DNA of 28,250 bases from Verrucomicrobiota bacterium (GTDB taxonomy: Bacteria > Verrucomicrobiota > Verrucomicrobiia > Limisphaerales > CANJXF01), in NCBI GenBank assembly GCA_038214755.1, contig JBBQRQ010000065.1, positions 1-28,250 of the forward strand, read 5' to 3'. Made by a program: the position numbers. Numbering within the stretch: position 1 is the stretch's first letter; each line of letters begins with the position of its first letter. Below are positions 15,001 to 24,000 of the stretch, piece by piece.

Positions 15001-18000
15001 GCGGCCAGTGATTTAACAGATCGGGAAAGAATAGGCTTCATATAAATATAGGTGTTGGTTTTTATGACTGTGTTGGCAAGTGAATGACTTTGCCACAGAA
15101 GTGCTCACTGACAAGGAGGAATTGTGTCGAAGGCGCGCAGCACAGATTTGCAGACGCAGGCCACATTGGAAGTCAGACGCTAACACGAATTCCTTCGTTA
15201 AAAACGTTTGAGAAGCGTGTTCGGACGCGTCCCGGACAATCCTTCCAGCAGAGGGGAATAAAAAAATAAAAGGGTTGCGCCAAGGGTTGTTTGCCTCTAT
15301 TAATAACCCCATCGAAGGTCAGACCACTGCAAGTAGTAGATAACAATTGGCATTCTCCGTTGCAGAGGTGTTCCCCAATTCAAATTCTTAATTTCCAAGG
15401 GTTATCCTGGAAGCGGCTTTTCGATACGCACACACATACATATATGAGCACTGAGCCTAATGGCGCGCCGGATTTTGGTTCCGGCTATTTGGAAATCTCC
15501 GAAAAAGGTTTCGGTTTTCTTCGCACCAAGGAAAATCATTTCCACCCGAAGCCGAACGATATTTTCGTCACACCCGACACCATCAAAAAGAATTTTCTGC
15601 GCGAGGGTTGCAAGATCTCCGGGCAAACCCAGCCTCCGCACCGGGGAAATAGTCCGCAGTTGAAAACGGTTGAGTTAGTGAACGACAGTCCTTTCGAGGA
15701 ATACACCAAGGCCGTCCGGTTTGAAAATCTGACGACCATTGATCCCATCGAAAAATACAATCTGGAAACTTCACCGGATTTGCTTGAAACGAGAATCATC
15801 GATCTGGTCACGCCGATTGGACGGGGGACGCGCGGCTTGATCGTCGCGCCGCCGCGCACGGGCAAAACCACCATTCTCAAACAAATCGCCAACGCCATCA
15901 CGACGAACCATCCCGATGTTTACGTTTTGGTTTTGTTGATTGACGAACGGCCGGAAGAGGTCACGGATTTTCAACGCTCGGTCAAAGCCGAAGTTGTCGC
16001 GTCATCGAACGATCAGGATTTGGAAACGCACGTCCGGCTTTCTCGTTTCACCATCGAACGCTGTCGGCGCATGGTCGAGAGCGGTAAGGACGTTTTTGTT
16101 TTGCTCGATTCCATCACTCGGGTGGCTCGCGCTTACAATAGCGTGCATGGCGGCAGCGGTCGCACCATGACCGGCGGTGTGGACGCGCGCGCGCTGGAAA
16201 TCCCGCGCAAGATGTTTGCCTCGGCGCGAAAAATCGAAGAAGGCGGTTCGTTGACCATCATTGCCACGGCACTGGTCGATACCGGTTCGCGCATGGACGA
16301 ATTGATTTTCCAGGAATTCAAAGGCACGGGAAACATGGAACTGATCCTCGACCGAAAACTTTCCGAGCGCCGCATCTTCCCGTCGATCGACATTCCGAAA
16401 AGCGGCACGCGCAAAGAGGAAAAATTGTTTCCGCCAAAAAACATGGAAGCCGTTCGCAAGTTGCGTCGCACCATGGTGGATTTGAATCCAGTAGAAGCGA
16501 TGGAGACGCTTCTCGCCGCGTTGAAAAAGCACAAGACCAACGAGGAGTTGTTGGCCAAGTTGCAGCAATAAATTTTGTAGCCCGTGTAGCGGCGCGTCTC
16601 TGACCGCCGCATTTTTTAAATGGCTTTGCAAAAAGGAAAACCCGAAGGCGGGCAGGGCGGCAAGCGTGGACACTCCAACATGACTCATTGGACTTCGACG
16701 GAGGAAATTAAAGCGGCTTCGAAAAAGCAGCGCAGAACCGATTCCAGAAAAATTGTTCAGGAACCAGAAGTTGGTTCGTCAGCGCGCGAAGATTAAAACG
16801 CAACAAGCAGGGCGCTCATTTTTAATTCCCCCTATGCCGAAACGCGATTCGCCTCTCTCCCGCCCGCCCCTGGAACGCATGATGAAAATTCATCAGTCGA
16901 TTCAGTCTGGAAAGTTTCCCAACGCCACCACGCTCGCCGGCGAACTCGAAGTCAGCACCAAATCCATCCATCGTGACTTGGAATTCATGCGTGACCGGAT
17001 GGAGCTTCCGCTCGAATACCACAAGGCGCGCAACGGCTATTTTTACACCGAAAAAGTCAACGCCTTTCCCACGCTGCAAATTAGCGAGGGAGAACTTTTC
17101 GCGCTGCTCGTCGCTGAGAAATCTTTGCAGCAATATCGCGGAACGCCTTTTGAAAAACCGCTGGTCAGCGCCTTTAAAAAAATGGCGGCGTCCCTCCCGG
17201 ACACCGTCTCGCTCAACTTGGCCGAGTGGGAGCAGACCATTTCTTTTCGCACCACGGCCGAGCCGATTTTGAATCTGGAAGTTTTTGACGCGCTCGGCAA
17301 AGCGACTTCGCAGCGACAGCAGTTGCAATTGGTTTATCGCAAGCCCGGCCAAAAAGAAACCGAGGCGCGACTGGTCGATCCGTATCACCTGGCCAACATC
17401 AACGGCGAATGGTTTTTGTTCGCCTACGATCACGCGCGAAAAGACATCCGAACTTTTGTTCCGGCGCGGATTCTATCGCTCGAGAAAACCGGGAAGACTT
17501 TTATTCGCCCGCAAAAGTTTTCGATGGAAAAAAGATTGCGCGACAGTTTCGGAGTTCATTCCGCCGAAGGGCAATTTGAGGTGGTGATTCGATTCAACGA
17601 GCAGGTCGCCGATTACATTCGCGAAAAGAAATGGCACGATTCGCAGGAGCTTAGCGAATTGAAAAATGGCGGAGTGGAATTACGTCTTCGACTTTCCAGT
17701 CTCGCGGAAATCGAACGCTGGATTTTAGGTTGGGGCGGAGACGCGGTCGCGTTGCGACCGGCGGAATTAGTTAAAAACGTAAAAGCCGCCGCGAAGAAAA
17801 TTCTTTCCGCGACCGGGTAGCATCTGCCTCCGGCGGGTGCGGCATCTGCCAATTCGATGTTCGATGTTCAGTGTTCGATGTTCGATGTTTGCAAAGTAAT
17901 TAACATCCAACGCTGAACATTGAAGTGATCCGCACCCGCCGGAGGCAGATGCTACCCCGGTCAACCACGATACACACACTGCGCGGTGCAAGTTTCGGCC

Positions 18001-21000: not shown

Positions 21001-24000
21001 GCAAAGCCAAAGGGTGCGGGTGTTGCGATTTTTATTTTTTGCGATGTTCGACAAGCGGAGGGAATTAGCCACAGATGAATCCGAATTTCACGAATTTGTT
21101 GTGGACGGTTTGTAATATTTAGATGGGAAATATGGCTCGCCCTCACCCTAACCCTCTCCCCCGAGGAGAGGGAATAGCTATTGGCGTCTCTCGCAGGTGC
21201 GGGAGTTTGTTGCAGCATTCCCACTTTTGGGTTATTCGCGCGAAGAAGCACGAAAACCGAGCGCATCCGAAACACCAAACGTAGCCAACGATTCTCCCTC
21301 TCCCCCGAGGAGAGGGCCGGGGTGAGGTCGAGCGTTTTCTTTTCATCCATTGCTCATCAAAGAACAACCGCGCGGTTCAGCCAGAGCAGTGCGGCCAATC
21401 AATTCAAAACCATCGCCACAACGAATTCCCAAATCTTCGGTTTGAATCGCCAGCACAGAATAAACATTGGCCAAATCGAAAACACGGATCAAACCGGTTT
21501 CGCCCTCGCCAACTTCGTTTCCAGTTTCTGGCGAAATAATTTGCGCGCGCGCCCACGGCGGAAAATGAAACACGCGCCGACTTTGAACTTTAAACTTTAA
21601 ACCTTGAACTATCCCGTCGTATGCCTGCGAGCTGAGTTCGCTCATCCCGTATTCACAGACGATGTGCGACTCAGGAATGCCCAGGTGTTTTGTGATGAAT
21701 TGATGCAGTTCCGCTTTCGGCAAAGTGCGCGAACGACCTTTGTAGCCGCCAGTTTCGAGAACTCGTGAACCAGTTGAGAGTCGGTAGCAAATATGGTTCG
21801 CGGCAAAATGATCGAGCAAATGCACGAAGGAAAATGCCGTGCCGAGAATTGCCACAGGACAATGGGCGCACACCGATTTGCGCAGAGCGAAAAGTGTTTG
21901 ATCGATGTCGAGCGTCCAGGAGTTTTGCCCCAAGGCCAACGCATCTGAATTGGCTGAAAAAGTGGGGCAGGCTTCCAGCCTGCCTGCGCGGGCATCTTGC
22001 CCGCGAACCTGTGACACTGGGGCTGGAAGCCCCTCTGACAGGCAAGATGCCCGCCCCACTATGCCTTCTTTTGGCCCATCGAGTTTTCCAGTGAAAAGTG
22101 AATCGCGCGAGCCAAGTTCGCGACGAACAGTTTCAAACATGTGAACGAGTGAAGAATTCGGCGCGAGAACAGGGGGCGGCGTAAGGAAAATAAATCCCGG
22201 TTTTTCGAGTGGCCCGATGATTTCGTTTTTGGCGAGTGCGCTCCATTGCGCGAGAAAATGTTTTTCAAACCACGGCAACAAGGAGGCTTCATAAATCGCG
22301 AGCGAATCGGCGTTGTGAAAATGGCGGCTTGGAATTTGTTCGGTCGTTCCGCTGGAATGGAAAACGCGCGTGCGCTCCTCCGGTTTTAAACTGGAAATTT
22401 CAAATTCCTTGAACGCGCTCGTTGGCAGCGCGGGGATCTCGCCCCAATGCCGGATCGTTTGCGGAGAAACTTTCCGCGCTTCGCAAAATTTCCGGAAGGT
22501 CGCAATCTCAGAAAATTGCAGCATGAAAAGAGACAGGGCCAATTCGTTGAATCGTGTTTCAAGGTGCTGTCGAGATTCTCTCGGCTGTTCGGACGATTCT
22601 GCCGAGAGAATCTCGGCAGCACTTTGGCGAATGAATTCACGCAGCTTCCCGGAGAAATCTTGAAAGGATAAAATTCTTTTCACGCGGTTTTTGATGGGCT
22701 GGTTTTCCGCTACAGCCAGAAGATATTTAGAGGCGAATCCGCCGCATCGCAAGTTTTACGGCAGCACGATCCGGTTTGTTGCGAACCCGGTTTTGGCGAG
22801 AATCTCCTTTCGCAATAACTTGCTACTAACTTGCTGGACGCTCCCATCCGCTAGTCCAACATTATTTTTTCCCGCGTGAAGTTCCTGTGACCAATGAACG
22901 TTCTGGTTCGTTGTAAGATTGAGCGTCCCGTTTTTTGGAACCAATCCGTTTGTGATATATTGGTCGCCCGATAAAAGCATCGTTCCATTTGTTTCCTCAG
23001 CATCAATGCCGACAAAATAGCTGATGTTGAGATTACTCATCTTATGAAAGTTACTGGAATGGCTTCGGCTTTTATCTTGGGGACAAACCAGAGCTCTTGT
23101 CGTGCCCAGTTCGTTTGAGAGCACTTGAAAAAGCCGAAACGCTTTTGGATTTTCGGCAAGTTCCATCGTGCCGCCGAGATTTGTCGAAACGTGCATGGGA
23201 TAGTTGCCGTTGTTGTCACCCGCCCAAATTCGAAACGACAAGCCGACCTGCTTCAAATTATTGACGCAACTGATGTGCGACCTGTATTTCGGCCTAGCAA
23301 GAATTGGCAAAAGAAAGGCCGCCAATAACACCAATATGGCAATAATGACGAGAATCTCGATTAAGGTTAGTCCCCTATGTTTTTTGAAAGAAGTTTTCAT
23401 AAATAAGCACGTTTCCCGACTGACTGAAATCTTTATAGCAGTCATAATGCCGCTGCGATTTCCTCAATAAAACGGAGTTCTTCCATGAAAAGTTGCGTGA
23501 TGCTCCCGCAAATCGAACAAACCTCACGCTTTCTCTTTGTGCCTCTGTGTCTCCGTGATTAATTTTTCTCCCGAATTAAATTCGCCATCTGCAACGAAAT
23601 TTTTAAAGATTGGAAACTCGACGAGGCGATGGCGTTCGCGGTTCGCCCAAGCAGCGGCGTTTGAGTTGGCGGAAAATGCCTGGATTTTTGTCCGGTTCGA
23701 AACGCGCGGACAAGGCTGTCCGCGCTCCATTTTGGTTTGGCATACTTACCTCTAATATGCAGGACGTTTCACAGACCGCCTCCTTCCGTCGGCGGCTATG
23801 TGGGAAATCTGAAGCTACCTTCCAATGCTCTTGTAGATAAATCCAAGCCGTTCCATTTCCTGCACGTCAAAAAGATTTCGCCCGTCGAAAAGAATCGGAT
23901 GCGTCAACGCTTTGCGCGCTCTTTCCAAGTCGAGTTTTTTAAACTCAGGCCACTCCGTCGCGATGATCAACGCATCGCAGCCGTCGGCGACTTCGTTCAT

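What a model noticed while it worked through the whole genome (the two positions that open the first line are those of the whole stretch)
17961..22524. QueC/QueF-independent queuosine route: LuxE/LuxC-like carboxylate reductase plus class-III aminotransferase convert CDG [...]
The genome has folE, queD, queE, tgt, queA, queG and gluQ but no queC or queF. queD shares an operon with LuxE-like (g03368) and LuxC-like (g03366) genes, and a class-III aminotransferase (g04187, C104:7057-8367) follows queE. These three genes are proposed to replace QueC and QueF: CDG is activated and reduced to 7-formyl-7-deazaguanine, then transaminated to preQ1.
Evidence so far: In 61 class genomes: LuxC-like 31, aminotransferase 34, QueC 20 and QueF the same 20. 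Overlap of QueC/QueF with either new gene is 0; 29 have both new genes. Within one family, four QueC-less genomes have LuxE and the aminotransferase while the QueC/QueF member has neither. luxE lies next to luxC in 28 of 30 loci and queD in 18 of 30. queE is next to the aminotransferase in 20 of 30 and in 63 of 80 further loci. queE-aminotransferase-luxE-luxC form one operon in 3 loci; luxE is next to queG in another. Order-wide tables: QueC 4.9% vs QueD 83%, QueA 80%, TGT 82%; queD-luxC adjacent in 540 of 769. The aminotransferase also lies near luxE in 4 loci from Eremiobacterota, Omnitrophota and Hydroge [...]
(Added by a program. Inside this text positions count along the whole contig: contig position 1 is position 1 of the stretch shown here. 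"Call 12" and the like, gene names such as g00115 and contig names such as C1 are that model's own, and its searches are not shown. The text may have been shortened before it was handed on; [...] marks where a part breaks off. The agent that wrote the report below was given it as the finding of a first reader that could run no searches.)

Follow-up and report, generated by a model that had tools for sequence, protein, structure and literature searches.

The report
Nitrile-free route to queuosine precursor
Three enzymes that can turn an acid group into an amine appear to replace the two standard enzymes for making preQ1, the precursor of the tRNA base queuosine, and a small RNA fold resembling a preQ1 sensor sits right in front of the first gene, pointing to an undescribed second way of building this base.

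Summary
Confirmed and extended. The window holds luxE-like, MFS, luxC-like and queD genes; queE and a class-III aminotransferase lie on another contig. The genome has folE, preQ1-type tgt, queA and queG but no queC or queF. In 151 class genomes, 83 carry the new genes, 61 carry QueC+QueF, 7 neither; none has both the new genes and QueF. In 31 genomes labelled as other lineages, found through the aminotransferase, all 31 have the LuxE-like gene, none QueF. Pairwise fusions exist and catalytic residues are invariant. New here: a conserved H-type pseudoknot with the hallmarks of a class-I type-II preQ1 riboswitch abuts the luxE start (22684-22717), with a compensatory pair; Rfam misses it. Best reading (0.85): CDG is adenylated, carried on enzyme cysteines, reduced to 7-formyl-7-deazaguanine and transaminated to preQ1. 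No assay exists. Against: 19 genomes with the new genes keep a divergent QueC-like protein, and near relatives of the LuxE/LuxC pair sit behind TPP riboswitches. The scan noted this route before on other DNA (four reports); the riboswitch candidate was not among them. Ten literature searches found no paper proposing it.

The parts
22684..22717 (-). Candidate preQ1 riboswitch (class I, type II-like): H-type pseudoknot, P1 GGCUG/CAGCC, U after the P1 5' strand, AC before the P1 3' strand, A-rich L3, P2 GCGG/CCGC ending at the luxE start codon
   Evidence: defining features from PMC11625349 passages; no Rfam match
22724..22752 (-). Possible sigma-70-like promoter (TTGCGA, 17 nt, TAAATA) six bases before the pseudoknot
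   Evidence: read by eye; not called by the consensus scan, so weak
21343..22683 (-). LuxE-like ANL adenylating enzyme with C-terminal carrier cysteine (probable start GTG 22683; open frame extends to 22752); proposed CDG-activating enzyme
   Evidence: PF04443; profile hit to 7XC6 LuxE E 1e-33; model of an ortholog folds like PaaK; K338, D440, R454, C463 invariant in 71 of 71
21961..22061 (.). Genome-wide interspersed repeat inserted in frame in luxE (absent from orthologs)
   Evidence: 79 BLASTN matches on 54 contigs; gap in alignment A4
19780..21072 (-). MFS transporter, not a conserved part (4 of 23 order luxC loci)
18422..19783 (-). LuxC-like thioester reductase; proposed to release 7-formyl-7-deazaguanine
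   Evidence: PF05893; model pLDDT 93.9, best match 7XC6_A TM 0.81; C278 invariant in 66 of 66
17961..18320 (-). queD, 6-carboxytetrahydropterin synthase (only copy in the genome)
   Evidence: TIGR03367 over cut-off; single PF01242 match

Best explanation
A QueC/QueF-independent de novo route to preQ1. FolE, QueD and QueE make 7-carboxy-7-deazaguanine (CDG) (established chemistry, genes shown). The LuxE-like enzyme adenylates the CDG carboxylate and loads it on its C-terminal Cys463; the acyl group passes to Cys278 of the LuxC-like enzyme, which reduces it with NAD(P)H to 7-formyl-7-deazaguanine; the class-III PLP aminotransferase encoded behind queE converts the aldehyde to preQ1, which TGT, QueA and QueG (or QueH) take to queuosine. 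A pseudoknot at the luxE start binds preQ1 and blocks translation initiation, giving end-product feedback on the first committed step. Shown: genes, linkage, distribution, catalytic residues, folds, conserved RNA element. Inferred: substrate, aldehyde, product, ligand binding.
For: (1) Class sample of 151 genomes: 83 with the new genes, 61 with QueC+QueF, 7 with neither, 0 with both new genes and QueF; four families hold both states. Six single-contig genomes (G037, G046, G055, G068, G080, G086) have the new genes and no QueC/QueF match, so assembly gaps do not explain it. The 7 'neither' genomes also gave no QueE match. (2) Demand: QueE match in 81 of 83, QueA in 36 of 36 tested; TGT keeps the Cys and Val of preQ1-type enzymes (PMC3660597 passages); no YhhQ-family transporter in 5 of 5. 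(3) Linkage: luxC-queD 22 of 23 order loci, queE-aminotransferase 28 of 30, queE-AT-luxE-luxC contiguous in f28 (L072, L073, L121), all five genes within 8 kb in G002. (4) 31 genomes labelled outside Verrucomicrobiota: LuxE-like 31, QueE-like 27, QueA 28, strong QueF 0, canonical QueC 2, one in a dpdABC island; AT next to luxE and/or luxC in 15 of 31. Gemmatimonadota-labelled ones: QueC in 0 of 12 against 86 of 121 in a phylum sample (that tally includes unpublished G234, 85 of 120 without it); LuxE ortholog in 0 of 5 QueC-positive and 2 of 5 QueC-negative genomes. (5) Fusions LuxC-AT (P0019), AT-LuxE (P0037, P0056), LuxE-LuxC (L155). (6) Catalytic residues invariant; AT clade has its own invariant signature in 113 sequences. 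(7) Pseudoknot with type-II preQ1-I hallmarks upstream of luxE in 18 other genomes of four lineages, never upstream of 117 AT, 88 queE, 78 luxC or 35 queD regions or on the opposite strand, exact core once in 5.1 Mb; first P1 pair varies G-C, C-G, U-A. (8) A Glu just before the A5 motif of LuxE-like is E in 38 of 38 class and E/Q in 30 of 30 other sequences but Met in 5 of 5 readable TPP-linked relatives, as expected if it reads a 2-amino-pyrimidine edge (inference; its place in the acyl pocket is recalled from PaaK, not confirmed).
Against: No biochemical or tRNA data. A divergent, Planctomycetota-type QueC-like protein is kept in 18 of 20 f28 genomes and in G162 beside the new genes; it sits next to queD in G162 and in 53 of 80 metagenome loci, so it may be a working CDG-activating enzyme whose role there is unexplained. 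The nearest LuxE/LuxC relatives on plasmids lie behind TPP riboswitches (5 of 6 loci) with an SDR and no que genes, so the pair alone does not specify CDG. Outside Verrucomicrobiota none of my 31 aminotransferase loci had queD or queE in the flank; 4 of 31 gave no QueE and 3 no QueA match. 3 of 5 QueC-negative Gemmatimonadota-phylum genomes lacked the LuxE ortholog. The RNA element has no Rfam match, was not found in 9 of 22 order genomes examined nor outside the class, and only one of nine pairs covaries (8 carry no information). Kin are not independent.
Confidence: 0.85

Rival explanations
1. Same pathway, different chemistry or product: the trio acts on a neighbouring intermediate (CPH4) or yields a preQ1 analogue (for example the alcohol or an N-substituted amine) that is put into tRNA.
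For: luxC is linked to queD rather than queE in the order (22 of 23); substrate pockets were not tested; the aminotransferase lacks the Arg that the closest solved ATs carry near the C-terminus and has an invariant Arg223 instead.
Against: QueA, which needs the primary amine of preQ1-tRNA (established knowledge), is kept in 36 of 36 tested; TGT is preQ1-type; the aminotransferase follows queE (28 of 30); the RNA element has preQ1-I hallmarks.
Confidence: 0.07
2. preQ1 is made by divergent or unrecognised QueC/QueF-like enzymes, and the trio makes something else (for example a fatty amine, as in tambjamine tails) while hitch-hiking on que operons.
For: Divergent QueC-like protein in 19 class genomes with the new genes; adenylation-reduction-transamination of fatty acids is known (PMC9594044 abstract; 10.1101/2025.08.11.669332 passages).
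Against: 64 of 83 genomes with the new genes have no QueC-like match at E 1e-10 and none has QueF; 5 of 11 weak QueF hits checked are FolE; a profile of the divergent QueC finds nothing but the QatC-like protein in the own genome; hitch-hiking would not give exclusion with QueC+QueF inside four families.
Confidence: 0.05
3. These genomes salvage preQ1 (the MFS gene importing it) and the trio serves another salvage task such as the thiamine-linked one of its relatives.
For: MFS in the operon; TPP riboswitches before related luxE-luxC-SDR operons.
Against: queD and queE are kept; MFS in only 4 of 23 order loci; no TPP match in the window or C104; no YhhQ family in 5 of 5; TPP-linked LuxE proteins form their own branch and come with an SDR, not this aminotransferase.
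Confidence: 0.03

Closest known systems
Canonical preQ1 synthesis by QueC and QueF (FolE, QueD, QueE, QueC, QueF; PMC11130926 passages, PMC13740343 passages)
   Same: Same upstream genes, same proposed substrate (CDG) and product (preQ1), same downstream TGT, QueA, QueG/QueH.
   Different: No nitrile: adenylation, enzyme thioesters, aldehyde, PLP transamination; unrelated folds; no preQ0 is made. 7-formyl-7-deazaguanine appears in PMC13740343 only as a side product of QueF mutants.
LuxC-LuxE fatty acid reductase of Photobacterium phosphoreum (PDB 7XC6; PMC9157457 passages)
   Same: LuxC fold (TM 0.81, rmsd 2.4), catalytic Cys, LuxE Lys/Arg pair and C-terminal carrier-Cys motif.
   Different: 17% identity; far below NCBIfam cut-offs (45 of 750, 57 of 550 bits); no lux context; proposed heteroaromatic substrate; coupled to an aminotransferase.
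Tambjamine tail enzymes TamA/TamH and TabE/TabA (PMC9594044 abstract; bioRxiv 10.1101/2025.08.11.669332 passages)
   Same: Acid to thioester to aldehyde to amine with an ALDH/LuxC-like reductase and a class-III transaminase, including a reductase-transaminase fusion.
   Different: Fatty acyl-ACP substrates in secondary metabolism; here no ACP, a LuxE-type carrier Cys and a primary tRNA-modification pathway.
Phenazine tailoring pair EhpF/EhpG (PDB 3HGV, 3L2K)
   Same: EhpF structures are among the Foldseek matches of the LuxE-like model; an AMP-binding plus aldehyde-dehydrogenase-family pair (PMC11278526 table passages). That it reduces a heteroaromatic acid to an aldehyde is recalled, not read here.
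   Different: 12% identity; antibiotic cluster; no aminotransferase link tested.
TPP-riboswitch-linked luxE-luxC-SDR operons (Pantoea, Azospirillum, Priestia, Niallia, Pseudomonas, Lactiplantibacillus plasmids); OarX context in PMC11223231 (parts 1-3 of 4 read)
   Same: Closest sequence relatives of the pair (30-36% identity), same catalytic residues.
   Different: TPP riboswitch, NMT1/THI5 or NCS2-type transporter and SDR instead of que genes and aminotransferase; Met instead of Glu before A5; function untested.
Class I type II preQ1 riboswitch (PMC11625349 passages)
   Same: H-type pseudoknot, U in L1, AC before the P1 3' strand, A-rich L3, four-pair P2, position over the translation start of a proposed Q gene.
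   Different: No match to any Rfam model; longer and variable L3 (8-19 nt); P2 ends at or overlaps the start codon rather than a Shine-Dalgarno sequence; the word Verrucomicrobia does not occur in that review.

Membership tests
Canonical de novo Q pathway | QueC present | tested here: not met
Canonical de novo Q pathway | QueF present | tested here: not met
Canonical de novo Q pathway | FolE, QueD, QueE, preQ1-type TGT, QueA, QueG/QueH present | tested here: met
   (QueE best model TIGR04349 257 of 300 bits, under cut-off)
Canonical de novo Q pathway | Q in tRNA | not testable with these tools
   needs LC-MS or APB northern
LuxC-LuxE fatty acid reductase | Fold and catalytic/carrier cysteines, Lys-Arg pair | tested here: met
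   PMC9157457 passages
LuxC-LuxE fatty acid reductase | Equivalog score (NF052251, NF052244) | tested here: not met
   45.4 of 750 and 56.9 of 550 bits
LuxC-LuxE fatty acid reductase | lux operon context and long-chain fatty acid substrate | tested here: not met
   neighbours are MFS and queD; substrate itself not testable
Class-III PLP aminotransferase | PF00202 over cut-off, PLP lysine and aspartate | tested here: met
   320 bits; K280 and D251 in 113 of 113
Class-III PLP aminotransferase | Membership of a named equivalog (GabT, ArgD, BioA, PatA) | tested here: not met
   all 25 shown NCBIfam models below cut-off
preQ1-I riboswitch, type II | H-type pseudoknot with P1 and P2 | tested here: inconclusive
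   97.4% of cells pair, one compensatory pair, eight pairs uninformative
preQ1-I riboswitch, type II | U in L1, AC before P1 3' strand, A-rich L3 | tested here: met
   invariant in 19 of 19 rows, partly built into the search pattern; features
preQ1-I riboswitch, type II | Match to an Rfam preQ1 model | tested here: not met
preQ1-I riboswitch, type II | Binds preQ1 and regulates the gene | not testable with these tools
   needs ITC or in-line probing and a reporter

The most novel reading that the evidence does not exclude
A second, nitrile-free de novo pathway to preQ1 used by over half of sampled Verrucomicrobiae and by members of several other phyla, built from a LuxE/LuxC-type heteroaromatic carboxylate reductase and a dedicated aminotransferase, feedback-controlled by an unrecognised preQ1-I-like riboswitch that covers the start codon; the same reductase family was redeployed behind TPP riboswitches for thiamine-fragment salvage.
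Probability: 0.6. Interest if true: 0.92.

Novelty: new variant of a known kind. Interest (0 to 1): 0.84.

Why it matters
The literature read here describes QueC and QueF as required for de novo preQ1, and classifies genomes as queuosine makers or scavengers by their presence (PMC11130926 passages). If this route is real, many soil and freshwater bacteria now scored as incomplete are producers of a micronutrient that all eukaryotes must scavenge. It gives a function to orphan LuxE/LuxC-like proteins, offers an acid-to-amine cascade for heteroaromatic substrates, and adds a candidate preQ1 riboswitch variant. It is testable in one complementation experiment.

Tried and rejected
No LuxE-like match in 50,697 phage records. 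No preQ1 riboswitch at Rfam gathering score in the window, C104 or 27 other loci, and none at E up to 10 around the element. The promoter and terminator scan was at chance level. No RNA holder was listed for the operon. No complex prediction was obtained, so LuxE-LuxC binding is untested. The LuxE tree is a quick IQ-TREE run with a midpoint root and 23 open branches; it shows the three TPP-linked proteins as one branch (100) but cannot order events. Weak QueF hits were rejected as FolE for 5 of 11 checked. Seven class genomes without an aminotransferase hit at E 1e-60 were a threshold effect for 4 of 5 re-tested, the fifth being cut by a contig end; two were not re-tested. The QueC of G112 was rejected as a housekeeping QueC because it lies among defence genes; that of G176 lies in a dpdABC island; the context of G159's QueC (next to an AAA ATPase) is unresolved. 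The review on aryl-CoA ligases did not confirm the pocket position of the Glu. Literature searches found no paper linking LuxE/LuxC or an aminotransferase to preQ1 synthesis; most subscription journals are not in that library and no supplements were read.
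Full report
Observation. The minus strand of the window carries luxE-like (open frame 21343-22752), an MFS transporter (19780-21072), luxC-like (18422-19783) and queD (17961-18320). queD passes its equivalog cut-off and is the only copy. 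On contig C104 queE is followed by a class-III aminotransferase. The genome (97% complete) has folE, tgt, queA and queG, no QueF, and only two weak QueC hits, a QatC-like defence protein by my reading and NAD synthetase. gluQ was not tested. Record titles of related loci place the lineage in Verrucomicrobiota.

Distribution in the class. The same 151 genomes (at least 90% complete) were searched for each gene: LuxC-like 80, LuxE-like 82, aminotransferase 76 at E 1e-60, QueC over cut-off 62, strong QueF 61. Eighty-three genomes have at least one new gene and 73 all three; 61 have QueC+QueF; 7 have neither; none has a new gene together with QueF; four families hold both states. Of seven genomes lacking the aminotransferase hit, five were re-tested with a profile: four have a full ortholog and one is cut by a contig end. 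The one overlap with canonical QueC (G112) has no QueF and its QueC lies among defence genes. Six single-contig genomes show the pattern. The 7 genomes with neither route gave no QueE match. QueE matched in 81 of the 83 and QueA in 36 of 36 tested; four genomes without or not tested for QueG have QueH. TGT keeps the cysteine and valine that mark preQ1-using enzymes (PMC3660597, passages). No YhhQ-family transporter was found in 5 of 5.

Linkage. luxC is next to queD in 22 of 23 order loci and 0 of 7 f28 loci; queE is next to the aminotransferase in 28 of 30 loci; queE-AT-luxE-luxC is contiguous in f28 and all five genes lie within 8 kb in G002. In 80 further loci queE was adjacent in 30, all among the 49 I read as Verrucomicrobiota from titles and identity. 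Fusions join every pair: LuxC-AT, AT-LuxE twice, LuxE-LuxC.

Other lineages. Thirty-one of those 80 loci carry titles outside Verrucomicrobiota (Gemmatimonadota, Eremiobacterota, Myxococcota, Elusimicrobia and others; depositors' labels can be wrong, completeness not given). Their genomes hold LuxE-like in 31, QueE-like in 27, QueA in 28, strong QueF in 0 and canonical QueC in 2; one of the two is in a dpdABC island, the other unresolved. The aminotransferase is beside luxE and/or luxC in 15 of 31, but beside queD or queE in none. The 12 Gemmatimonadota-labelled genomes have no QueC, against 86 of 121 in a sample of that phylum (includes unpublished G234, 85 of 120 without it). From that sample, the LuxE ortholog was in 0 of 5 QueC-positive genomes (one weak partial hit) and 2 of 5 QueC-negative ones.

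Enzymes. The LuxC-like model (pLDDT 93.9) matches LuxC of 7XC6 best (TM 0.81, rmsd 2.4, 17% identity) and Cys278 is invariant in 66 of 66. The model of a LuxE-like ortholog (pLDDT 85.9) matches PaaK-type ligases and EhpF; the profile hits LuxE of 7XC6 at E 1e-33; Lys338, Asp440, Arg454 and Cys463 are invariant in 71 of 71 and correspond to the Lys/Arg pair and carrier cysteine described in PMC9157457 (passages). Both proteins score far below the LuxC and LuxE equivalog cut-offs. The aminotransferase has its PLP lysine and a clade signature (His81, Asp85, Arg223, Trp302, His311-Thr314) nearly invariant in 113 sequences and fits no named equivalog. Acid-to-amine conversion by this logic is known for fatty acids (PMC9594044, abstract; 10.1101/2025.08.11.669332, passages).

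A candidate preQ1 riboswitch. Homologs shared apparent 'protein' sequence upstream of their start codons, which turned out to be conserved DNA. At 22684-22717 the minus strand reads P1 GGCUG, U, one base, P2 GCGG, AAAAC, P1' CAGCC, an A-rich loop and P2' CCGC, directly followed by the probable start GTG at 22683. The element is upstream of luxE in 12 of 20 order genomes fetched for this (not in G090), and in two f28, three f20 and one f46 genome, where it appears to overlap the start codon. A structure pattern hit 12 of 71 luxE upstream regions (many cut short), 0 of 117 aminotransferase, 88 queE, 78 luxC and 35 queD regions, 1 of 3 queG regions (weak pairs), and none on the opposite strand; the exact core occurs once in the 5.1-Mb genome; a looser pattern occurs 175 times, so conservation and position, not the pattern, carry the weight. 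In 17 distinct rows 97.4% of cells pair; the first P1 pair is G-C 13, C-G 2, U-A 1, mismatch 1; the other pairs do not vary, the P2 departures being a one-column misalignment of the f20 row. U in loop 1, AC before the 3' strand of P1 and an A-rich loop 3 are the features given for class I type II preQ1 riboswitches in PMC11625349 (passages). Rfam does not recognise it. If it binds preQ1, it ties luxE to that molecule independently of gene neighbourhood.

What does not fit. A divergent QueC-like protein (52-89 bits against a cut-off of 150) is kept in 18 of 20 f28 genomes and in G162, all with the new genes and without QueF; G048 has another one in a defence-like context. The f28 type is commonest in Planctomycetota clusters and lies next to queD in G162 and in 53 of 80 metagenome loci, never next to the new genes. 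It may make preQ0 or the amide for another use; I cannot explain it. Also, the closest plasmid relatives of the LuxE/LuxC pair (30-36% identity) lie with an SDR and a transporter behind TPP riboswitches in 5 of 6 loci. This shows that the pair alone does not fix the substrate, but it also fits reduction of a heteroaromatic acid, the chemistry proposed and not found for OarX alone in PMC11223231 (parts 1-3 of 4). These relatives form one branch in a quick tree and have Met where the others have Glu or Gln before the A5 motif.

Mechanism and verdict. CDG is adenylated and loaded on LuxE-like Cys463, passed to LuxC-like Cys278, reduced to 7-formyl-7-deazaguanine and transaminated to preQ1; preQ1 feeds back on luxE translation. 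Genes, linkage, distribution, folds, residues and the RNA element are shown; substrate, intermediate, product and ligand binding are inferred. Confidence 0.85 for the route, lower for the riboswitch. Ten literature searches found no paper proposing the route; the library lacks most subscription journals. The scan recorded the same route on other DNA in four earlier reports and the TPP-linked operons in three; a look-up for the riboswitch found nothing. It is a new variant of a known pathway using chemistry with precedent; interest 0.84.

Noticed in passing
L101 5598-5727, L103 5469-5601, L359 2706-3002, L360 4716-4843, L361 1390-1497: TPP riboswitches precede luxE-luxC-SDR operons (with NMT1/THI5 ABC or SLC23-type transporter) on plasmids of Pantoea, Azospirillum, Niallia, Pseudomonas and Lactiplantibacillus: a likely thiamine-fragment salvage route (acid to alcohol).
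   Followed up: partly
L077 6742-7398, L078 6205-6858, L217 5562-6218, L270-L349: Divergent Planctomycetota-type QueC-like family below the TIGR00364 cut-off, next to queD in 53 of 80 metagenome loci; kept in f28 genomes that lack QueF.
   Followed up: partly
window 21961-22061: An interspersed genome repeat (79 matches on 54 contigs) is inserted in frame in luxE, adding about 60 residues absent from orthologs.
   Followed up: partly
L002 712-3227 (G000:C38): QatC-like QueC homolog of 620 aa with an upstream partner, a probable defence module, in a genome without housekeeping QueC.
   Followed up: no
L074 2038-8942 (G112) and L084 814-2759 (G048): QueC-family genes beside nucleoside 2-deoxyribosyltransferase; in G112 also SIR2-like, dCTP deaminase-like, PD-(D/E)XK and PDC-M57 proteins: candidate defence islands.
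   Followed up: partly
L215 6166-13271 (G176): dpdABC island with its own folE2, queD, queE and two queC genes in a genome that also has the aminotransferase-luxE-luxC operon, as expected if the new route yields no preQ0.
   Followed up: partly
L261 1906-2757 (G076): A pteridine-reductase-like SDR lies next to queD in f28 genomes.
   Followed up: no
L001 10091-11524: A transposase-like ORF lies just upstream of the queE-aminotransferase pair in this genome.
   Followed up: no
window 27748-27822: tRNA-Cys(GCA); rho at 15291-16571 and a WYL-domain regulator at 16753-17820 converge on the operon end.
   Followed up: no
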